Positions 12,369-64,000 of a stretch of DNA of 64,000 nucleotides are shown here, piece after piece. Every line of letters starts with the position of its first letter. Position 1 is the stretch's first letter. A program made the translations under genes and the position numbers. This DNA comes from Escherichia coli (GTDB lineage: Bacteria > Pseudomonadota > Gammaproteobacteria > Enterobacterales > Enterobacteriaceae). The notes under the pieces were generated by a model. That model was given only the letters and a program-made list of their open reading frames with translations, was not told the origin of the DNA and ran no database searches. Where the stretch lies: the NCBI RefSeq assembly GCF_030013205.1, contig NZ_CP122648.1; one strand, 5' to 3'.

Positions 12369-13772
12369 ATGTCTGACCATAATCCACTGACATTAAGACT
12401 GAATCTGCGGGAAAAAATCACCTATGGTATGGGCGACGTCGGTTCGAATTTAATGCTCTGCATCGGTACTCTGTATCTCCTCAAATTTTATACCGATGAA
12501 TTAGGGATGCCTGCTTACTATGGCGGGATTATCTTTCTGGTGGCGAAGTTTTTTACCGCGTTTACCGATATGCTCACCGGATTTTTACTCGACTCGCGGA
12601 AAAATATTGGGCCTAAAGGCAAATTTCGTCCCTTTATTTTATATGCAGCGGTTCCGGCGGCGTTAATTGCAACGCTCCAGTTTATCGCCACCACCTTTAG
12701 TTTGCCGGTTAAAACGACGATTGCCACCGCACTGTTTATGATGTTTGGACTTTCATACAGTCTGATGAACTGCTCGTATGGTGCGATGATCCCGGCAATT
12801 ACCAAAAACCCGAATGAGCGCGCGCAGCTCGCGGCTTACCGCCAGGGTGGTGCAACCATAGGGCTATTGATTTGTACCGTGGCGTTTATTCCGTTGCAGT
12901 CGCTTTTTTCTGACTCCACCGTCGGTTATGCCTGCGCGGCACTGATGTTCTCCATTGGTGGCTTTATTTTTATGATGCTGTGCTACAGAGGCGTCAAAGA
13001 GCATTATGTGGACACGACGCCAACCGGACATAAAGCCAGTATTCTCAAATCTTTTTGCGCGATATTTCGTAATCCGCCATTGCTGGTTTTGTGCATTGCT
13101 AACCTGTGTACCCTGGCGGCATTTAATATCAAACTGGCGATTCAGGTCTATTACACCCAGTATGTGCTGAATGATATTAATTTATTGTCGTGGATGGGAT
13201 TTTTCAGTATGGGATGTATCCTCGTCGGCGTATTACTGGTGCCATTAACTGTAAAATGTTTTGGTAAAAAACAGGTTTATTTAGCTGGCATGGTGCTATG
13301 GGCGGTTGGTGATATCCTGAATTATTTCTGGGGAAGTAACTCTTTCACTTTCGTCATGTTCTCTTGTGTCGCCTTTTTTGGCACGGCCTTTGTAAACAGC
13401 CTGAACTGGGCACTGGTGCCAGATACCGTAGATTACGGTGAATGGAAAACCGGTATTCGTGCCGAAGGTTCTGTTTATACCGGTTATACCTTCTTTCGTA
13501 AAATTTCTGCCGCACTTGCTGGCTTCTTGCCAGGCATTATGCTGACGCAAATCGGTTATGTTCCCAACATCGCGCAAAGTGATGCGACATTACAGGGTTT
13601 GCGTCAGCTCATTTTTATCTGGCCTTGTGCACTGGCAATTATTGCTGCATTGACGATGGGATTCTTTTACACACTCAATGAAAAACGGTTTGCATTGATT
13701 ATTGAGGAAATCAACCAACGCAAAAATAAAGAGATGGCGACAGAAGAAAAAACGGCTTCCGTAACGTTATAA
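12369..13772 (+). CDS. yihO: GPH-family transporter (sulfoquinovose importer)
   Basis: ORF 12363..13772 trimmed to MSDHNPLTLRL (RBS aaggag upstream); 467 aa. Confidence 0.9.
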   Translation: MSDHNPLTLRLNLREKITYGMGDVGSNLMLCIGTLYLLKFYTDELGMPAYYGGIIFLVAKFFTAFTDMLTGFLLDSRKNIGPKGKFRPFILYAAVPAALIATLQFIATTFSLPVKTTIATALFMMFGLSYSLMNCSYGAMIPAITKNPNERAQLAAYRQGGATIGLLICTVAFIPLQSLFSDSTVGYACAALMFSIGGFIFMMLCYRGVKEHYVDTTPTGHKASILKSFCAIFRNPPLLVLCIANLCTLAAFNIKLAIQVYYTQYVLNDINLLSWMGFFSMGCILVGVLLVPLTVKCFGKKQVYLAGMVLWAVGDILNYFWGSNSFTFVMFSCVAFFGTAFVNSLNWALVPDTVDYGEWKTGIRAEGSVYTGYTFFRKISAALAGFLPGIMLTQIGYVPNIAQSDATLQGLRQLIFIWPCALAIIAALTMGFFYTLNEKRFALIIEEINQRKNKEMATEEKTASVTL

Positions 13773-14624: not shown

Positions 14625-15305
14625 TGTGCACAGAAAACCCCCAGCTAGGCTGGGGGTTCCGGAAAGCTTTCAGCTTTGAGCCAGTTATTAAAACCCCTTT
14701 TGATTTGTTAAAACACCTTGCGGTCTGGCAACTGCAAGTGTCAAACAAGAAATCAAAAGGGGGTCCCAATGGGGAACGAAAAGAGCTTAGCGCACACCCG
14801 ATGGAACTGTAAATATCACATGGTTTTTGCGCCAAAATACCGAAGACAGGTGTTCTACAGAGAGAAGCGTAGAGCAATAGGCAGTATTTTGAGAAAGCTG
14901 TGTGAGTGGAAAAGCGTACGGATTCTGGAAGCTGAATGCTGTGCAGATCATATCCATATGCTTGTGGAGATCCCGCCTAAAATGAGCGTATCCGGGTTTA
15001 TGGGATATCTGAAAGGGAAAAGCAGTCTGATGCTTTACGAGCAGTTTGGTGATTTGAAATTCAAATACAGGAACAGGGAGTTCTGGTGCAGAGGGTACTA
15101 CGTCGATACAGTGGGTAAGAACACGGCGAAGATACAGGATTACATAAAGCACCAGCTTGAAGAGGATAAAATGGGAGAGCAGTTATCGATTCCCTATCCG
15201 GGCAGCCCGTTTACGGGCCGTAAGTAACGAAGTTGGATGCAAATGTCAGATCGTGTGCGCCTGTTAGGGCGCGGCTGGTAAGAGAGCCTTATAGGCGCAT
15301 TTGAA
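14625..15305 (+). mobile_element. IS200-family (IS200/IS605) insertion element; ends approximate
   Basis: Contains a 152-aa tnpA ORF nearly identical to Salmonella IS200 TnpA as remembered; perfect hairpin cccccag-ctagg-ctggggg at about 14640-14658 upstream of tnpA; K-12 has no such element between ompL and yihN. Exact left and right ends not determinable without an empty-site comparison. Confidence 0.7.
14769..15227 (+). CDS. tnpA: IS200 transposase TnpA (HUH Y1 transposase)
   Basis: MGNEKSLAHTRWNCKYHMVFAPKYRRQVFY...HIHMLVEIPPK...; HUH motif (HIH) and the catalytic-Tyr region recognised; RBS aaagggg upstream. Confidence 0.9.
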   Translation: MGNEKSLAHTRWNCKYHMVFAPKYRRQVFYREKRRAIGSILRKLCEWKSVRILEAECCADHIHMLVEIPPKMSVSGFMGYLKGKSSLMLYEQFGDLKFKYRNREFWCRGYYVDTVGKNTAKIQDYIKHQLEEDKMGEQLSIPYPGSPFTGRK

Positions 15306-18615: not shown

Positions 18616-20439
18616 TTAATCGTCTTTCGGTGCGCGGTTGGCGCGGCGACGATCGTTTTCCGTCAGGTGACGTTTACGAATACGGATAGAGGTTGGAGTC
18701 ACTTCTACCAGTTCGTCATCATCGATGAACTCCAGAGCTTGTTCCAGAGTCATGCGGATAGGCGGAACCAGAACAACGGCTTCGTCAGTACCGGAAGCAC
18801 GCATGTTGGTCAGTTTCTTACCGGTCAGGCAGTTTACAGTCAGGTCGTTAGAGCGGCTGTGAATACCGATAATCTGACCTTCGTAAACTTCTGCACCGTG
18901 ACCGAGGAACAGCTTACCGCGATCCTGCAGACCGAACAGCGCGAACGCTACCGCTTTACCCTGACCGTTAGAGATCAGTACGCCGTTCTGACGCTGACCC
19001 ACTTCACCCGGACGTACGTCGTCGTAGTGGCTGAAGGTGGAGTACAGCAGACCAGTACCGGAAGTCATGGTCATGAACTCAGAACGGAAGCCAATCAGAC
19101 CACGGCTTGGGATCACGTAGTCGAGACGTACGCGGCCTTTACCGTCTGGATTCATGTTTTTCAGGTCGCCTTTACGTTCGCCCAGCGCCTGCATCACAGA
19201 ACCCTGATGCTGTTCTTCAACGTCCAGCGTCACGTTTTCATACGGCTCTTGTTTACGACCGTCGATTTCACGGAAGATTACTTTCGGACGGGATACCGCC
19301 AGTTCGAAACCTTCACGACGCATGTTTTCGATCAGAACAGACAGGTGCAGTTCGCCACGACCAGAAACGCGGAACGCATCGGCGTCTTCGGTTTCTTCTA
19401 CGCGCAGCGCAACGTTGTGTACCAGTTCTTTGTTCAGACGATCCAGGATCTGACGAGACGTTACGAACTTACCTTCTTTACCGCAGAACGGCGAGGTGTT
19501 AACGCAGAAGAACATAGAAACGGTCGGCTCATCAACGGAGAGTGCCGGCAGCGCTTCAACGTTTTGCGTGTCGCAAACGGTGTCAGAAATGTTCAGTTCG
19601 CCCAGGCCCGTGATCGCCACGATATCGCCAGCTTCCGCCAGATCGGTTTCGATACGTTCCAGACCGAGGTGGCCCAGCACTTTACCGACTTTCGCGTTGC
19701 GGGTTTTGCCTTCGCTATCGATGATAGTAACCTGCTGGTTCGGCTTCACTTTACCGCGCTTGATGCGGCCAATGCCGATAACGCCAACATAGCTGTTGTA
19801 ATCGAGCTGAGAAATCTGCATCTGGAACGGACCGTCAAGGTCAACGTCCGGCGCAGGAACGTGGTCAACAATCGCCTGATACAGCGGGGTCATGTCTTCC
19901 GCCATATCTTCGTGGTCCAGACCCGCGATACCGTTCAGCGCAGAAGCGTAAACGATCGGGAAGTCCAGCTGCTCGTCGGTCGCGTCGAGGTTAACGAACA
20001 GATCGAATACCTGATCCACAACCCAATCAGGACGCGCGCCAGGGCGGTCAACTTTGTTGATAACAACAATCGGCTTCAGGCCGTAAGCAAACGCTTTTTT
20101 GGTTACGAAGCGCGTTTGCGGCATCGGGCCGTCAAATGCGTCAACCACCAGCAGCACTGAGTCTACCATGGACATTACACGTTCAACTTCACCACCGAAG
20201 TCGGCGTGCCCCGGGGTATCAACGATGTTGATACGGTAATCATTCCATTTGATAGCGGTGTTTTTCGCGAGGATGGTAATCCCACGCTCTTTCTCCAAAT
20301 CGTTGGAGTCCATCACGCGCTCTTGGGTTTCGGCACGAGAGTCGAACGTACCGGATTGTTGGAGCAGCTTGTCTACCAGGGTGGTTTTACCATGGTCTAC
20401 GTGCGCGATGATGGCGATATTACGCAATTTTTCGATCAC
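18616..20439 (-). CDS. typA: Ribosome-associated translational GTPase BipA/TypA
   Basis: 607-aa [26 protein letters not shown]...; G1 AHVDHGKTT and G3 DTPGH motifs. Confidence 0.95.
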
Positions 20440-20587
20440 AACTTTGCCTCAGGCATTAGAAATAGCGCGTTATTGTACACGGATTAATCGCACTACAAAA
20501 CAGGATCACAAACATCCTCCGCAAACAAGTATTGCAGAGTCCCTTTGTGATCGCTTTCACGGAGCATAAAAAGGGTTATCCAAAGGT

Positions 20588-20640
20588 CATTGCACCAATA
20601 TGGTGCTTAATGTTTCCATTGAAGCACTATATTGGTGCAA
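20588..20640 (+). promoter_or_regulatory. Tandem NtrC (NRI) binding sites / enhancer upstream of glnA
   Basis: tgcaccaatatggtgc (20591-20606) and gcactatattggtgc (20624-20638), both fitting the NtrC TGCACC-N5-GGTGCA dyad. Confidence 0.65.
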
Positions 20641-20712
20641 CATTCACATCGTGGTGCAGCCCTGTTGCACGATGGTGCGCATGATAACGCCTTTTAGGGG
20701 CAATTTAAAAGT

Positions 20713-20728
20713 TGGCACAGATTTCGCT
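20713..20728 (+). promoter_or_regulatory. Sigma-54 promoter glnAp2
   Basis: tggcacagatttcgct: GG and GC at the -24/-12 spacing, about 85 nt upstream of the glnA ATG. Confidence 0.7.
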
Positions 20729-20811
20729 TTATCTTTTTTACGGCGACACGGCCAAAATAATTGCAGATTTCGTTACCACGACGACCATGACCAATCCAGG
20801 AGAGTTAAAGT

Positions 20812-22221
20812 ATGTCCGCTGAACACGTACTGACGATGCTGAACGAGCACGAAGTGAAGTTTGTTGATTTGCGCTTCACCGATACCAAAGGTAAAGAACA
20901 GCACGTCACTATCCCTGCTCATCAGGTGAATGCTGAATTCTTCGAAGAAGGCAAAATGTTTGACGGCTCCTCGATTGGCGGCTGGAAAGGCATTAACGAA
21001 TCCGACATGGTGCTGATGCCAGACGCATCCACCGCAGTGATTGATCCGTTCTTCGCCGATTCTACCCTGATTATCCGTTGCGACATCCTTGAACCTGGTA
21101 CCCTGCAAGGCTATGACCGTGACCCGCGCTCCATCGCGAAGCGCGCTGAAGATTACCTGCGTTCCACTGGCATTGCCGACACCGTACTGTTCGGGCCAGA
21201 ACCTGAATTCTTCCTGTTCGATGACATCCGTTTCGGATCTTCTATCTCCGGTTCCCACGTTGCTATCGACGATATCGAAGGCGCATGGAACTCCTCCACC
21301 CAATATGAAGGTGGTAACAAAGGTCACCGTCCGGCAGTGAAAGGCGGTTACTTCCCGGTTCCGCCGGTAGACTCTGCTCAGGATATTCGTTCTGAAATGT
21401 GTCTGGTGATGGAACAGATGGGTCTGGTGGTTGAAGCCCATCACCACGAAGTAGCGACTGCTGGTCAGAACGAAGTGGCTACCCGCTTCAATACCATGAC
21501 CAAAAAAGCTGACGAAATTCAGATCTACAAATATGTTGTGCACAACGTAGCGCACCGCTTCGGTAAAACCGCGACCTTTATGCCAAAACCGATGTTCGGT
21601 GATAACGGCTCCGGTATGCACTGCCACATGTCGCTGTCTAAAAACGGCGTCAACCTGTTCGCAGGCGACAAATACGCAGGTCTGTCTGAGCAGGCGCTGT
21701 ACTATATTGGCGGCGTAATCAAACACGCGAAAGCGATTAATGCCCTGGCAAACCCGACCACCAACTCTTACAAGCGTCTGGTCCCGGGCTACGAAGCACC
21801 GGTAATGCTGGCTTACTCTGCACGCAACCGTTCTGCGTCTATCCGTATTCCGGTGGTTTCTTCTCCGAAAGCACGTCGTATCGAAGTACGTTTCCCGGAT
21901 CCGGCGGCTAACCCGTACCTGTGCTTTGCTGCCCTGCTGATGGCCGGTCTTGATGGTATCAAGAACAAGATCCATCCGGGCGAAGCCATGGACAAAAACC
22001 TGTATGACCTGCCGCCGGAAGAAGCGAAAGAGATCCCACAGGTTGCTGGTTCTCTGGAAGAAGCACTGAACGAACTGGATCTGGACCGCGAGTTCCTGAA
22101 AGCCGGTGGCGTGTTCACTGATGAAGCGATCGATGCGTACATCGCTCTGCGTCGCGAAGAAGATGACCGCGTGCGTATGACTCCGCATCCGGTAGAGTTT
22201 GAGCTGTACTACAGCGTCTAA
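20812..22221 (+). CDS. glnA: Glutamine synthetase
   Basis: 469-aa [34 protein letters not shown]...; adenylylation site region NLYDLP present. Confidence 0.97.
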
Positions 22222-22306
22222 TAGTTGAAGTTGTACTACCCGGCGCAACAACGCCGGGATTTAGTTGCCGTGGAAACTTTCAGCCCATCTCTGCATGGGC
22301 TTTTTT
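22222..22306 (+). ncRNA. glnZ: glnA 3'UTR, likely source of the 3'UTR-derived sRNA GlnZ
   Basis: About 85 nt between the glnA stop and an intrinsic terminator (agcccat-ctctgc-atgggct + tttttt, 22282-22306); a GlnZ sRNA processed from the glnA 3'UTR is established in enterics. Exact 5' end not determinable from sequence. Confidence 0.4.
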
Positions 22307-22355
22307 CTCCGTCAATTCTCTGATGCTTCGCGCTTTTTATCCGTAAAAAGCTATA

Positions 22356-22375
22356 ATGCACTAAAATGGTGCAAC
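22356..22375 (+). promoter_or_regulatory. NtrC operator at the glnL promoter
   Basis: tgcactaaaatggtgcaa, an NtrC dyad overlapping a tataat-like -10 upstream of glnL. Confidence 0.55.
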
Positions 22376-22394
22376 CTGTTCAGGAGACTGCTTT

Positions 22395-23444
22395 ATGGCA
22401 ACAGGCACGCAGCCCGATGCTGGGCAGATCCTCAACTCGCTGATTAACAGTATTTTGTTAATCGATGACAACCTGGCGATCCATTACGCCAACCCCGCCG
22501 CGCAACAACTGCTCGCCCAAAGCTCCCGCAAATTGTTTGGTACACCGTTACCGGAACTGTTGAGCTACTTCTCATTAAATATCGAGCTGATGCAAGAAAG
22601 TCTGGAGGCGGGGCAAGGTTTTACTGATAACGAAGTGACGCTGGTCATCGACGGGCGTTCGCATATCCTTTCTGTGACGGCCCAGCGTATGCCGGACGGC
22701 ATGATCCTGCTGGAGATGGCACCGATGGATAACCAGCGCCGCTTAAGTCAGGAACAGCTACAGCACGCCCAGCAGGTTGCTGCCCGTGATTTAGTGCGCG
22801 GCCTGGCACATGAGATTAAAAATCCGCTTGGCGGTTTACGTGGCGCGGCGCAGCTGCTCAGCAAAGCATTACCTGACCCGTCACTACTCGAATATACCAA
22901 AGTGATTATCGAACAGGCGGACCGGCTGCGAAATCTGGTCGACCGTCTGTTGGGACCGCAACTGCCCGGTACGCGCGTTACCGAAAGTATTCATAAAGTG
23001 GCTGAACGCGTGGTGACGCTGGTGTCGATGGAACTGCCGGACAACGTGCGGTTGATTCGTGATTACGACCCCAGCCTGCCGGAACTGGCGCACGACCCGG
23101 ATCAAATTGAGCAAGTGCTCCTGAATATTGTGCGCAATGCGCTACAGGCGCTGGGGCCAGAGGGTGGTGAAATCATTCTGCGTACCCGCACAGCTTTTCA
23201 ACTGACCTTACACGGCGAGCGTTATCGGCTGGCGGCGCGAATTGATGTGGAAGATAACGGGCCAGGTATTCCGCTTCATTTGCAGGATACACTGTTTTAC
23301 CCGATGGTCAGCGGCCGCGAAGGTGGCACCGGGCTTGGCTTATCCATCGCCCGTAATTTGATTGATCAGCATTCAGGCAAAATTGAATTTACCAGTTGGC
23401 CAGGTCATACCGAGTTCTCGGTTTACCTGCCTATCAGGAAATAA
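22395..23444 (+). CDS. glnL: Nitrogen regulation sensor histidine kinase NtrB (NRII)
   Basis: 349-aa ORF; H-box HEIKNPLGG, and N, G1, G2 boxes. Confidence 0.95.
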
Positions 23445-23455
23445 AGGTGACGTTT

Positions 23456-24865
23456 ATGCAACGAGGGATAGTCTGGGTAGTCGATGACGATAGTTCCATC
23501 CGTTGGGTGCTTGAACGTGCGCTCGCTGGAGCGGGTTTAACCTGTACAACATTTGAGAACGGCGCGGAGGTACTGGAGGCGCTGGCGAGCAAAACGCCGG
23601 ATGTGCTGCTTTCAGATATCCGTATGCCGGGAATGGACGGGCTGGCGCTGCTCAAGCAGATTAAACAGCGCCATCCGATGCTTCCGGTCATCATTATGAC
23701 CGCACATTCCGATCTGGATGCTGCCGTCAGCGCCTATCAACAAGGGGCGTTTGATTATCTGCCCAAACCGTTTGATATCGACGAAGCCGTGGCGCTGGTT
23801 GAGCGCGCCATCAGCCATTATCAGGAACAGCAGCAGCCGCGTAATGTTCAGCTTAACGGCCCAACGACCGATATCATCGGCGAAGCGCCAGCCATGCAGG
23901 ACGTGTTCCGTATTATCGGTCGGCTTTCGCGTTCTTCTATTAGCGTGCTGATTAACGGCGAATCCGGCACCGGTAAAGAACTGGTCGCTCATGCCCTGCA
24001 TCGCCACAGTCCGCGAGCCAAAGCGCCATTTATCGCGCTGAATATGGCGGCTATCCCGAAGGATTTGATCGAATCAGAACTGTTTGGTCACGAGAAAGGC
24101 GCGTTTACCGGCGCGAATACCATTCGTCAGGGGCGTTTTGAACAGGCCGATGGTGGCACATTATTCCTCGATGAAATTGGCGATATGCCGCTGGATGTGC
24201 AGACCCGTTTGCTGCGCGTGCTGGCAGACGGTCAGTTTTATCGCGTTGGCGGCTATGCGCCGGTGAAAGTGGATGTGCGGATTATCGCTGCCACTCACCA
24301 GAATCTTGAACAGCGGGTGCAGGAAGGCAAGTTCCGTGAGGATCTGTTCCACCGCCTGAACGTCATCCGCGTTCATCTGCCGCCGCTGCGCGAACGTCGG
24401 GAAGATATTCCCCGTCTGGCACGCCATTTTTTACAGGTTGCCGCGCGCGAACTGGGAGTAGAAGCGAAGTTACTGCATCCGGAAACCGAAGCCGCGCTGA
24501 CGCGTCTGGCTTGGCCAGGCAACGTGCGCCAGCTGGAAAACACCTGCCGCTGGCTAACGGTAATGGCTGCCGGACAGGAAGTGTTGATTCAGGATTTGCC
24601 TGGCGAACTGTTTGAATCAACGGTTGCGGAGAGTACTTCGCAAATGCAACCGGACAGTTGGGCGACGCTGTTAGCGCAGTGGGCAGACAGGGCGCTGCGT
24701 TCCGGTCATCAAAATCTGCTTTCCGAAGCGCAGCCTGAGCTGGAGCGGACGTTACTGACGACCGCGTTGCGACATACGCAAGGGCATAAACAGGAAGCGG
24801 CGCGGCTACTCGGCTGGGGGCGTAACACTCTGACGCGGAAGTTAAAAGAGCTGGGGATGGAGTGA
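23456..24865 (+). CDS. glnG: Nitrogen regulation response regulator NtrC (NRI), sigma-54 activator
   Basis: ORF 23396..24865 trimmed to [20 protein letters not shown]; receiver domain, AAA+ ([14 protein letters not shown]) and C-terminal HTH; 469 aa. Confidence 0.95.
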
Positions 24866-27348: not shown

Positions 27349-27413
27349 AATGGTTCGTCTTTTAGCCGTTTTATTCAGTATAGATTTGCGGCGGAATCTA
27401 ACAGAAAGCAAGC

Positions 27414-27659
27414 AAAGAAAAAAGGCGACAGATTACTCTGTCGCCTTTTTTCCTGACTCATAACCCTTAACGGGTCTTACAATCCTTGCAGGCCGCCAAC
27501 ACACCCTGTTTTTCCATTAGCCGGAACAATCCGTGTTGATTCCATTTCCGTTTAATTACGTCTCCGGACGTTTGTCTTCCTGACAATCCTCTGTCTTCGC
27601 CTCCTGGCGCTCCTGACCCTCATCCTGAGTCATTGTTCCTGTTAGCGTCCTCGCTCTAT
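27414..27659 (-). ncRNA. csrC: CsrC small RNA (CsrA-sequestering)
   Basis: Minus strand reads ATAGAGCGAGGACGCTAACAGGAACAATGACTCAGGATGAGGGTCAGGAGCGCCAGGAGG..., with many GGA motifs, ending in the hairpin ggcgacagagtaatctgtcgcc + U-run; matches CsrC as remembered and its known yihA-yihI intergenic location. Confidence 0.85.
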
Positions 27660-28685: not shown

Positions 28686-28796
28686 AATAAAAAACGCCCC
28701 AGTCATTACTGACTGGGGCGGCTAAAATATTCAGCCAAATCCGATTACGTGAAGTAAAAGGTCTGAAAGATAGAACATCTTACCTCTGTACCCTAC
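28686..28796 (-). ncRNA. spf: Spot 42 small RNA
   Basis: Minus strand reads GTAGGGTACAGAGGTAAGATGTTCTATCTTTCAGACC...GCCGCCCCAGTCAGTAATGACTGGGGCGTTTTTTATTGGGCG, matching Spot 42 including its terminator; immediately 3' of polA as in K-12. Confidence 0.9.
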
Positions 28797-28943
28797 GCGA
28801 CTAACTTTACTCTTTTTTGTTCAGTTCAGAAAGCATTTTTTGTAATTTTTTTTCAGTTGTTGCATAGGAATTTCTAATAGCCATCACAAAACGTGACAGC
28901 TTATGTTGCTTACTTACGAAAAAAGGGCATGTTCAGGCGAATC

Positions 28944-37890: not shown

Positions 37891-38010
37891 ATGCCTGGCA
37901 GTTCCCTACTCTCGCATGGGGAGACCCCACACTACCATCGGCGCTACGGCGTTTCACTTCTGAGTTCGGCATGGGGTCAGGTGGGACCACCGCGCTAAGG
38001 CCGCCAGGCA
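37891..38010 (-). rRNA. rrfA: 5S ribosomal RNA
   Basis: Minus strand reads TGCCTGGCGGCC...GGAACTGCCAGGCAT over 120 nt, matching E. coli 5S rRNA with at most one mismatch to my recollection. Confidence 0.95.
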
Positions 38011-38102
38011 AATTCTGTTTCATCAGACCGCTTCTGCGTTCTGATTTAATCTGTATCAGGCTGAAAATCTTCTCTCATCCGCCAAAACATCTTCGGCGTT
38101 GT

Positions 38103-41007
<2,905 letters not shown>

Positions 41008-41190
41008 TCACAACCCGAAGATGTTTCTTTCGATTCATCATCGTGTTGCGAAAATTTGAGAGACTCACGAACAACTTTCGTTGTTCAGTGTTTCAATTTT
41101 CAGCTTGATCCAGATTTTTAAAGAGCAAAACTTCGCAGTGAACCTTTGCAGGTACACTCTGAAGTATTTTTTATTTAATCACTACAGAGA

Positions 41191-41266
41191 TGGTGGAGCT
41201 ATGCGGGATCGAACCGCAGACCTCCTGCGTGCAAAGCAGGCGCTCTCCCAGCTGAGCTATAGCCCC
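41191..41266 (-). tRNA. alaT: tRNA-Ala (anticodon UGC), rRNA spacer
   Basis: Minus strand reads GGGGCTATAGCTCAGCTGGGAGAGCGCCTGCTTTGCACGCAGGAGGTCTGCGGTTCGATCCCGCATAGCTCCACCA. Confidence 0.95.
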
Positions 41267-41308
41267 ATAACATGTAGTTAAAACCTCTTCAAATTTGCCG
41301 TGCAAATT

Positions 41309-41385
<77 letters not shown>

Positions 41386-41453
41386 GTAGAGGTTTTACTG
41401 CTCATTTTCATCAGACAATCTGTGTGAGCACTTCAAAGAACGCTTCTTTAAGG

Positions 41454-42995
<1,542 letters not shown>

Positions 42996-56470: not shown

Positions 56471-58713
<2,243 letters not shown>

Positions 58714-63371: not shown

Positions 63372-64000
63372 ATGAGTGATATTATTTACCTGAACATAAC
63401 CGGAGAACAACAAGGATGTATTTCCTCTCGTTGTGGAACGAGCGCATCAATAGGTAATCGCTGGCAGATTGGCCATGAAGATGAAATCTTCGCGTTCTCG
63501 CTCTCTAATAGTATTACGAATACAGGCAAAGGGTCACAATTGCATGGCCTTAGTTTCTGTAAATTGATTGACAAAAGCTCCCCGTTACTTATTAACGCTA
63601 TTAACAATAACGAGCAGTTGTTCATGGAGTTTGACTTCTATCGGATCAATAGATTTGGTCGATGGGAGAAATATTACAACATTCAACTTCGCGGCGCGCT
63701 CTTATCAGCAATCAATCACCTGTTTACTGAGAACAATCTGGATACAGAAACCATCACTGTCAGTTATGAATATATACTCTCCAGGCATCTGATTGCTAAT
63801 ACTGAATTTAGTTATTTGGCATTTCCCGATAACTACAACCGTCTGTTTATACCACGGCCAAAAACTAAAGATGATAATGGCCTCAAAACACTCAATAGTA
63901 AAGCGGTTGGCAGACTGCTTGCTGCTGGCGGCATATACAATGGGAATATCGAAGGATTCAGGGAAACAGCAAACAAGTTGGGAGGAGATGCACCTGCTGG
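63372..64000 (+). CDS. Hcp-like (type VI secretion tube protein family) ORF with C-terminal extension; 3' end beyond the window
   Basis: ATG at 63372, open to the window end (at least 209 codons, checked codon by codon). N-terminus MSDIIYLNITGEQQGCISSRCGTSASIGNRWQIGHEDE... and internal LSFCKLIDKSSPLLINAINNNEQLFMEFDFYRINRFGRWEKYY match Hcp hallmarks (GHEDE, KxIDKSSPxL, FxFYRIN). An Hcp domain is normally complete by about 150-160 aa; this ORF continues (…IPRPKTKDDNGLKTLNSKAVGRLLAAGGIYNGNIEGFRETANKLGGDAPA…). Low-GC relative to flanking core genes. Not in the ORF track because no stop lies in the window. Confidence 0.7.
   Translation, partial: MSDIIYLNITGEQQGCISSRCGTSASIGNRWQIGHEDEIFAFSLSNSITNTGKGSQLHGLSFCKLIDKSSPLLINAINNNEQLFMEFDFYRINRFGRWEKYYNIQLRGALLSAINHLFTENNLDTETITVSYEYILSRHLIANTEFSYLAFPDNYNRLFIPRPKTKDDNGLKTLNSKAVGRLLAAGGIYNGNIEGFRETANKLGGDAPA

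What the first reader, a model, noticed from the sequence alone, without database searches (positions are those of the whole stretch)
20588..20728. Canonical glnA enhancer and sigma-54 promoter
Two strong NtrC dyads lie about 110-140 bp upstream of a clear -24/-12 element (TGGCAC-N5-TCGCT), the textbook glnAp2 architecture. A third NtrC dyad overlaps the glnL promoter at 22356-22375. This supports the annotation and strand assignment for the whole glnALG operon.
Basis: partly seen in the sequence, partly recalled or inferred. Interest (0 to 1): 0.2.

Follow-up and report, generated by a model that had tools for sequence, protein, structure and literature searches.

The report
Textbook E. coli glnA enhancer-promoter
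This is the well-known control region of the E. coli glutamine synthetase operon, where the nitrogen regulator NtrC binds upstream and switches on a sigma-54 promoter; it is real but ordinary.

Summary
The window is E. coli chromosome, 99.994% identical to pig isolate K_EC180. Positions 20588-20728 are the typA-glnA intergenic region, differing from K-12 MG1655 at 2 of 391 bases.

Two NtrC dyads (20591-20607 and 20623-20639) lie upstream of TGGCAC-N5-TCGCT (20713-20728). Their centres match the published -140 and -108 if transcription starts at about 20739. A third, perfect dyad (22357-22373) abuts the TATAAT of the glnL promoter.

These three are the only matches in 64 kb to the published NtrC consensus. 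None of 1000 random sequences had two such sites within 200 bp.

The sigma-54 element is the best PWM hit in the window (15.7 bits). That score alone is at chance level for 64 kb, so context carries the argument.

The dyads sit at -140/-108 in nearly all of about 80 enterobacterial species. About 33 chance 17-mer hits in unrelated taxa have none.

The only non-textbook details are a rare pig-lineage T>G change in the published CCCTTTT bend element, an NtrB P294L substitution, and an Rfam sRNA family (ES222) on the opposite strand. Already known; low interest.

The parts
20547..20562 (.). CRP site TGTGATCGCTTTCACG upstream of glnAp1, centred about 70 bp upstream of the inferred glnAp1 start
   Evidence: Read directly from the sequence. 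It is a strongly conserved block in 76 enterobacterial sequences. A classical CRP site upstream of glnAp1 is reported in PMC1865078. The assignment of this exact sequence to that site is my inference.
20591..20607 (.). NtrC high-affinity site I (enhancer), TGCACCAATATGGTGCT, centre 20599 = -140
   Evidence: 1 mismatch to the consensus. The GCAC and GTGC cores are invariant in 76 of 76 sequences. It sits at -140 in nearly all enterobacterial loci. The published position is -140.
20589..20624 (+). glnAp1, a weak sigma-70 promoter. Its -35-like TTGCAC (20589-20594) lies inside site I, and its start at about 20624 lies inside site II
   Evidence: The position is inferred from the statement that glnAp1 lies 115 bp upstream of glnAp2, is activated by CRP and is blocked by NtrC-P (PMC1865078). 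The simple sigma-70 scan did not detect it, which fits a weak promoter.
20623..20639 (.). NtrC high-affinity site II (enhancer), AGCACTATATTGGTGCA, centre 20631 = -108. It is 32 bp (three helical turns) from site I
   Evidence: The published position is -108.
20642..20702 (.). Three low-affinity NtrC sites III, IV and V. Published centres are -89, -66 and -45, which correspond to 20650, 20673 and 20694. III has a perfect TGGTGCA half-site at 20652-20658. IV is TGCAC-GAT-GGTGC at 20666-20678. V is degenerate.
   Evidence: Positions are taken from PMC5159524 and mapped onto the window. The half-sites are visible, and GGTGCAG and TTGCAC are conserved blocks. No binding was tested here.
20660..20666 (.). 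Proposed intrinsic bend element. It is CCCTTTT in K-12 and CCCTGTT here, because of a T>G change at 20664.
   Evidence: One search shows the SNP. (PMC2709558, citing Carmona et al. 1997) describes the CCCTTTT bend 'centred at -73'. The identical 60-mer occurs in only 14 of 5426 E. coli genomes. T is present in 70 of 76 enterobacterial sequences.
20713..20728 (+). glnAp2 sigma-54 promoter, TGGCACAGATTTCGCT. GG is at 20714-20715 (-25/-24) and GC at 20726-20727 (-13/-12). The start site is inferred at about 20739, 73 nt before the ATG.
   Evidence: top PWM score in the window, 15.7 bits. It is identical to the EcoCyc glnA sigma-54 promoter listed in S2 Table of PMC12316311. The start site is inferred from the dyad centres and the published -140/-108.
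20739..20811 (+). glnA 5' untranslated leader, with Shine-Dalgarno AGGAG at 20798-20802
   Evidence: The leader boundaries are inferred.
20812..22221 (+). glnA, glutamine synthetase (469 aa)
   Evidence: NF007006, 1048.6 bits against a cut-off of 845. 100% identical to K-12 GlnA. Annotated as glnA.
22222..22307 (+). glnA 3' UTR, the short EsrF / class I form of the sRNA GlnZ. The seed GTTGCCGTGGAAACTT lies directly before the terminator hairpin at 22282-22301 and its T-run.
   Evidence: One search shows the K-12 REP insertion is absent. One search finds the terminator. One search shows 100% identity to O157:H7. The classes are described in bioRxiv 10.1101/2022.04.01.486790.
22352..22373 (+). 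glnL promoter -10 TATAAT (22352-22357), overlapped by the NtrC operator dyad TGCACTAAAATGGTGCA (22357-22373)
   Evidence: The dyad next to TATAAT or TATACT is conserved in 58 of 62 loci. Negative control of glnLp by NtrC is reported in PMC3870243. There is an NtrC ChIP-seq peak at glnLG.
22395..23444 (+). glnL (NtrB / NRII sensor kinase), P294L relative to K-12
   Evidence: NF008293, 698.6 bits against a cut-off of 240.
23456..24865 (+). glnG (NtrC / NRI), the sigma-54 enhancer-binding protein that recognises the dyads
   Evidence: NF008176, 1051.7 bits against a cut-off of 620. GAFTGA at residue 215 and the Walker A motif GESGTGK at 168, with 100% identity to K-12.

Best explanation
This is the glnALG control region of E. 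coli.

Under nitrogen limitation, NtrB phosphorylates NtrC. NtrC-P dimers bind the two high-affinity dyads at -140 and -108 and assemble into an AAA+ hexamer. By looping the roughly 100 bp of intervening DNA, the hexamer contacts sigma-54 RNA polymerase, which is held in a closed complex at TGGCAC-N5-TCGCT. ATP hydrolysis then opens the promoter (glnAp2).

The same two dyads cover the -35 region and the start site of the weak, CRP-activated sigma-70 promoter glnAp1. NtrC-P therefore shuts glnAp1 off while it turns glnAp2 on.

Three weak sites between the enhancer and the promoter modulate output at high NtrC-P.

A third strong dyad over the glnL -10/start region lets NtrC repress the internal sigma-70 promoter that supplies basal NtrB and NtrC.

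Shown here: the sequence elements, their non-random co-occurrence, near-identity to K-12, deep conservation of position and of the half-site cores, and the identity of the genes.

Inferred from published K-12 work: binding, looping, activation and repression.
For: - 389 of 391 bases are identical to K-12 MG1655, and the region is present in 5425 of 5426 complete E. coli genomes.
- The three dyads are the only sites in 64 kb within 2 mismatches of the NtrC consensus. None of 1000 random sequences had a pair within 200 bp.
- The dyad centres are 32 bp apart, exactly as published for -140 and -108.
- The sigma-54 element is the top PWM hit in the window and lies within the range of known promoters. 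It is the same sequence as the curated EcoCyc glnA promoter.
- Of 120 loci that hold the exact 17-mer, 82 have a glnA start downstream. Nearly all of these carry both dyads at -140/-108 (+/-1), while about 33 chance hits in unrelated phyla carry none.
- The GCAC and GTGC cores are invariant in 76 of 76 sequences while the spacer varies.
- GlnA, NtrB and NtrC all score above the equivalog cut-offs, and NtrC has GAFTGA and a Walker A motif.
- Published NtrC ChIP-seq peaks exist at glnALG and glnLG. In gSELEX, NtrC gave 97% signal at the glnA-typA spacer.
Against: Nothing contradicts it. Three caveats apply.
- The -24/-12 match alone is at chance level for 64 kb and has a C in place of the consensus T at -14.
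- This strain has a rare T>G change in the proposed bend element next to site IV and an NtrB P294L change. Their effects are untested.
- rpoN is not in the window.
- No expression or binding data exist for this strain.
Confidence: 0.97

Rival explanations
1. The dyads are primarily repressor operators for the sigma-70 promoters (glnAp1 and glnLp) and not an enhancer for a sigma-54 promoter. On this reading the TGGCAC-N5-TCGCT match is a chance occurrence.
For: The sigma-54 motif alone is not above chance in 64 kb. Dyads I and II do overlap glnAp1, and the third overlaps the glnL -10, so operator function is real.
Against: The sequence is the curated, experimentally studied glnAp2. The exact 17-mer lies upstream of glnA in more than 80 enterobacterial species, at a fixed distance from the dyads. 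Repression and activation are both documented and are complementary, not alternative.
Confidence: 0.02
2. The palindromes are conserved because they form stems in an RNA made from the opposite strand (Rfam ES222 sRNA, or the typA leader, 20628 to 20521), rather than as protein-binding sites.
For: The Rfam family ES222 matches 20521-20628 on the minus strand at 133 bits against a gathering score of 62. Its consensus structure uses the palindromic segments.
Against: In 76 sequences, 20602 is A instead of G in 19, with no compensating change at its would-be partner 20596 (C in 75 of 76). The GCAC and GTGC cores are invariant rather than covarying. The same dyad recurs at glnL, where no such RNA is matched. 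NtrC binding at this locus is shown experimentally. The two readings can coexist: an RNA may be transcribed across protein-binding sites.
Confidence: 0.01

Closest known systems
E. coli K-12 glnAp1/glnAp2 control region of glnALG (NtrC sites I-V, sigma-54 promoter, CRP site)
   Same: 389 of 391 bases are identical. The dyad spacing, the -24/-12 sequence, the distance to the glnA ATG and the flanking genes typA and glnA are all the same.
   Different: There are two SNPs.
- 20599 C>T lies in the unspecified centre of site I. This allele is in about a quarter of E. coli genomes (1278 of 5425 share the 60-mer) and is the majority base across Enterobacteriaceae (56 of 76).
- 20664 T>G changes the proposed bend element CCCTTTT to CCCTGTT. 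The identical 60-mer occurs in 14 of 5426 genomes.
glnL operator-promoter (glnLp) of the glnALG operon
   Same: The last 120 bp before glnL are identical to K-12, including TATAAT and the dyad.
   Different: The upstream part of the glnA-glnL spacer is the short O157:H7-type (EsrF / class I GlnZ) form, without the K-12 REP insertion.
Other NtrC-dependent sigma-54 promoters of E. coli (glnK, glnHp2, nac, astC)
   Same: They share the GG-N10-GC promoter class and the same activator (sequences).
   Different: glnAp2 scores lower than most of them against the PWM, 15.7 bits against a median of 17.7. It is combined with an overlapping sigma-70 promoter.

Membership tests
NtrC-dependent sigma-54 enhancer-promoter (glnAp2 type) | A -24 GG and -12 GC element with the fixed spacing, matching the sigma-54 consensus | tested here: met
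   TGGCACAGATTTCGCT at 20713-20728 has 1 mismatch to TGGCAC-N5-TTGCW. It scores 15.7 bits on a PWM built from 25 other E. coli promoters, whose leave-one-out range is 13.0-23.0, and it is the top hit in the window. The score alone is not above chance for 64 kb.
NtrC-dependent sigma-54 enhancer-promoter (glnAp2 type) | Two or more NtrC dyads (TGCACCAnnnTGGTGCA) about 100-150 bp upstream of the start site | tested here: met
   Sites at 20591-20607 and 20623-20639 have 1 and 2 mismatches. No pair occurred in 1000 random sequences. Their centres fit the published -140 and -108.
NtrC-dependent sigma-54 enhancer-promoter (glnAp2 type) | Placed upstream of, and co-oriented with, a nitrogen-assimilation gene | tested here: met
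   glnA starts at 20812 on the + strand.
NtrC-dependent sigma-54 enhancer-promoter (glnAp2 type) | A cognate enhancer-binding protein with receiver, AAA+ (GAFTGA) and DNA-binding domains is encoded | tested here: met
   glnG at 23456-24865 matches NF008176 at 1051.7 bits. GAFTGA is at residue 215 and the Walker A motif at 168, and the protein is identical to K-12 NtrC.
NtrC-dependent sigma-54 enhancer-promoter (glnAp2 type) | Architecture conserved in orthologous loci | tested here: met
   The dyads sit at -140/-108 (+/-1) in nearly all of 82 enterobacterial glnA loci and are absent from the chance hits. The loci were selected by an exact match to the promoter 17-mer, so only the upstream conservation is independent evidence.
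NtrC-dependent sigma-54 enhancer-promoter (glnAp2 type) | rpoN (sigma-54) present in the genome | not testable with these tools
   rpoN is not in the 64-kb window. From general knowledge of E. coli it is expected elsewhere in the genome; this was not checked.
NtrC-dependent sigma-54 enhancer-promoter (glnAp2 type) | NtrC-P binding, and glnG- and rpoN-dependent transcription from the predicted start | not testable with these tools
   This is known only for K-12 from the literature: ChIP-seq and EMSA, gSELEX, and in vitro work summarised.
glnL operator-promoter | A sigma-70 -10 element directly overlapped by an NtrC dyad, shortly upstream of glnL | tested here: met
   TATAAT at 22352-22357 shares its last T with the perfect dyad at 22357-22373, which ends 22 bp before the glnL ATG. 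This is conserved in 58 of 62 loci.
Rfam RF02755 ES222 sRNA (opposite strand) | Covariance-model score above the gathering threshold | tested here: met
   133 bits against 62, at 20521-20628 on the minus strand. Whether it is a separate functional RNA could not be tested, and no literature was found.

The most novel reading that the evidence does not exclude
The pig-associated E. coli lineage that this window comes from carries two rare, linked changes in the nitrogen-control circuit. One is T>G at about -75 of glnAp2, in the published CCCTTTT bend element and 2 bp from low-affinity NtrC site IV. The other is NtrB P294L. Together they might retune glnALG output, for example through looping efficiency on relaxed DNA or through the kinase/phosphatase balance, as a lineage-specific adaptation. 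They may equally be neutral clonal markers.
Probability: 0.05. Interest if true: 0.25.

Novelty: already known. Interest (0 to 1): 0.05.

Why it matters
It matters only as a positive control. The first-stage reader correctly recognised the classic bacterial enhancer from raw sequence, and that anchors the annotation and strand of glnALG in this window.

There is one methodological lesson. The sigma-54 -24/-12 motif on its own is not statistically distinguishable from background in 64 kb. The call rests on its co-occurrence with clustered NtrC dyads, its position before glnA, and its conservation.

Tried and rejected
- Curated matrices. Barrios et al. 1999 (PMC148710) and Ueno-Nishio et al. 1984 (PMC214728) are not held. 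The file held for S3 Table of PMC12316311 contains protein motifs, not the promoter PSSM. I therefore built a PWM from the 25 non-glnA EcoCyc promoters in its S2 Table.
- No independent curated set of NtrC sites was available. The published 17-bp consensus was used in place of a matrix.
- PMC4551910 held no usable table of sites.
- A literature search for ES222 returned only unrelated papers. A search for the bipA/typA promoter was unproductive, so the 5' end and the promoter of the minus-strand transcript remain unresolved. I saw no convincing -10 element upstream of 20628 on the minus strand.
- The simple sigma-70 scan found neither glnAp1 nor glnLp. It gave one chance-level minus-strand hit at 20709-20681.
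- Rfam has no GlnZ family that reaches threshold here. The only related hit is a sub-threshold match to Ysr49, at 34 bits against a gathering score of 95.
- I considered and rejected the idea that the palindromes are RNA stems, because there is no compensatory variation.

Full report
**What is in the sequence**

Reading 20300-20900 shows, on the + strand:
- TGCACCAATATGGTGCT at 20591-20607
- AGCACTATATTGGTGCA at 20623-20639
- TGGCAC-AGATT-TCGCT at 20713-20728
- an ATG at 20812, preceded by AGGAG

Reading 22180-22480 shows a terminator hairpin with a T-run. It is followed by TATAAT at 22352-22357, whose last T is the first base of the perfect dyad TGCACTAAAATGGTGCA (22357-22373). The next ORF starts with ATG at 22395.

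**Where the window comes from**

The 391 bp around the finding match 5425 of 5426 complete E. coli genomes, 14 of them at 100%. The whole window is 99.994% identical to NZ_CP062203.1 (strain K_EC180, pig faeces) over 64 kb.

The annotated gene order around the finding is yihL, typA (- strand), glnA, glnL, glnG, yshB (+ strand) and hemN. Against K-12 MG1655, the typA-glnA spacer plus the first codons of glnA differ at only 2 of 391 positions.

The three ORFs score above the NCBIfam equivalog cut-offs for glutamine synthetase, NR(II) and NR(I). GlnA and NtrC are identical in protein sequence to K-12, and NtrB differs by P294L. NtrC carries the GAFTGA and Walker A motifs.

**Is it more than chance?**

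For the NtrC dyads, yes.
- With the published 17-bp consensus TGCACCAnnnTGGTGCA (quoted in PMC8743547) and up to two mismatches, the window contains exactly three sites, the three in question. Shuffles give 0.36 on average.
- With the looser pattern TGCACY-N5-GGTGCA and up to one mismatch, the same three sites are again the only ones.
- In 1000 first-order Markov sequences of 64 kb, none had two sites within 200 bp and only 4 had three or more sites.

For the sigma-54 element taken alone, no.
- The consensus with up to one mismatch gives 3 hits against 3.03 expected.
- I built a PWM from 25 other E. coli sigma-54 promoters listed from EcoCyc in S2 Table of PMC12316311. glnAp2 is the top site in the window at 15.7 bits, within the leave-one-out range of the known promoters (13.0-23.0, median 17.7). 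Random 64-kb sequences reach a maximum of 15.9 bits on average. A second site inside yihO scores 15.5 bits.

What makes the promoter call secure is context.

**Context and conservation**

The two dyad centres (20599, 20631) are 32 bp apart, as are the published -140 and -108 (PMC1865078; PMC5159524). This places +1 at about 20739, 73 nt before the ATG. It also places the GG and GC at -25/-24 and -13/-12.

An exact search for the promoter 17-mer in one genome per species returned 120 loci. In 82 of them a glnA start follows. Nearly all of those with enough upstream sequence carry both dyads at -140/-108 (+/-1). The roughly 33 hits in Bacteroidales, Lachnospiraceae, Planctomycetia and other unrelated groups are the number of chance hits expected for a 17-mer in about 300 Gb, and they carry none.

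In an alignment of 76 distinct enterobacterial sequences, the conserved blocks are:
- the CRP site
- the half-sites of dyads I and II
- the GGTGCAG and TTGCAC of the weak sites
- the stretch from CGCCTTTT to the promoter

The GCAC and GTGC cores are invariant in 76 of 76 sequences while the central bases vary. Because the loci were chosen by the promoter 17-mer, only the upstream conservation is independent evidence.

The glnL dyad, next to TATAAT or TATACT, is present in 58 of 62 loci.

**How it works**

The steps below are from published K-12 work and were not tested here.

NtrC-P binds sites I and II, oligomerises, and by DNA looping activates sigma-54 holoenzyme bound at -24/-12.

glnAp1 is a weak sigma-70 promoter 115 bp upstream of glnAp2. 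[quoted passage not shown] Mapped onto the window, its start (about 20624) falls in site II and its -35-like TTGCAC falls in site I. The CRP-like TGTGATCGCTTTCACG sits at 20547-20562.

Low-affinity sites centred at -89, -66 and -45 map to 20650, 20673 and 20694. The literature gives them roles in boosting and then limiting output (the 'governor').

NtrC negatively controls glnLp.

NtrC occupancy at glnALG and glnLG has been shown by ChIP-seq and EMSA and by gSELEX.

**Rivals**

*The sigma-54 match is fortuitous and the dyads are only operators.* This is excluded in practice by identity to the characterised promoter and by the fixed dyad-to-promoter geometry across genera.

*The palindromes are RNA stems of the minus-strand Rfam family ES222.* That family matches 20521-20628 at 133 bits. 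The pattern of variation argues against this reading. G>A at 20602 occurs in 19 of 76 sequences, with no compensating change at 20596. An RNA may still be transcribed across the sites.

**What differs from the textbook sequence**

- 20599 C>T lies in the unspecified centre of site I. This allele is common in E. coli (1278 of 5425 genomes share the 60-mer) and is the majority base in Enterobacteriaceae. K-12 is the unusual one.
- 20664 T>G turns the proposed intrinsic bend element CCCTTTT into CCCTGTT. It lies 2 bp from site IV. The identical 60-mer occurs in 14 of 5426 genomes, and those listed are from pigs. T is found in 70 of 76 enterobacterial sequences. According, that element mattered only on relaxed templates in vitro, so the change is probably neutral.
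- NtrB P294L: the identical 60-mer occurs in 17 genomes, all from pig isolates. That count is a lower bound for the amino-acid change.
- The glnA 3' UTR is the short O157:H7 (EsrF / class I GlnZ) form, which is present in most E. coli.

**Verdict**

The element is already known, and it was mapped experimentally in the K-12 sequence, which differs here at only 2 of 391 bases. Interest is low.

Noticed in passing
window 20521-20628 (- strand): The Rfam family ES222 sRNA (RF02755) matches at 133 bits against a gathering score of 62. The match runs from inside NtrC site II, across site I and the CRP site, towards typA. It may be a fragment of the typA leader. No paper on ES222 was found in the held library, and I saw no convincing -10 element upstream of 20628.
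   Followed up: partly
window 20664: A T>G change turns the published glnAp2 bend element CCCTTTT into CCCTGTT, 2 bp from low-affinity NtrC site IV. The identical 60-mer occurs in only 14 of 5426 complete E. coli genomes, and those listed are pig ETEC or O139:H1 isolates. T is present in 70 of 76 enterobacterial sequences.
   Followed up: partly
window 23274-23276 (glnL codon 294): NtrB P294L is the only amino-acid difference from K-12 across GlnA, NtrB, NtrC and TypA. The identical 60-mer occurs in 17 genomes, all from pig isolates.
   Followed up: partly
window 22222-22307: The glnA 3' UTR is the short EsrF / class I GlnZ form. It is 100% identical to O157:H7 and lacks the REP insertion of K-12 GlnZ. 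This form covers at least 80% of the query in 3850 of 5425 genomes. Rfam gives only a sub-threshold Ysr49 hit (34 bits).
   Followed up: yes
window 13376-13397 (+ strand), inside yihO: There is a second sigma-54-like site, TTTTGGCACGGCCTTTGTAAAC, scoring 15.5 bits, almost equal to glnAp2. It has no NtrC dyads nearby and its score is at chance level for 64 kb.
   Followed up: no
window 14636-15226: An IS200C transposase gene (14768-15226) with the STnc490 Hfq-binding RNA (14636-14759) lies between ompL and yihN.
   Followed up: no
window 27406-27659, 28688-28806, 37893-42995, 58108-58359, 63372-64000: Other features seen in the window: CsrC and Spot 42 sRNAs; an rrn operon with tRNA-Ile and tRNA-Ala and a StyR-44 element; the Rfam 'Erse' sRNA inside ubiJ; and a type VI secretion tube gene (tssD/Hcp) cut by the window end.
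   Followed up: no
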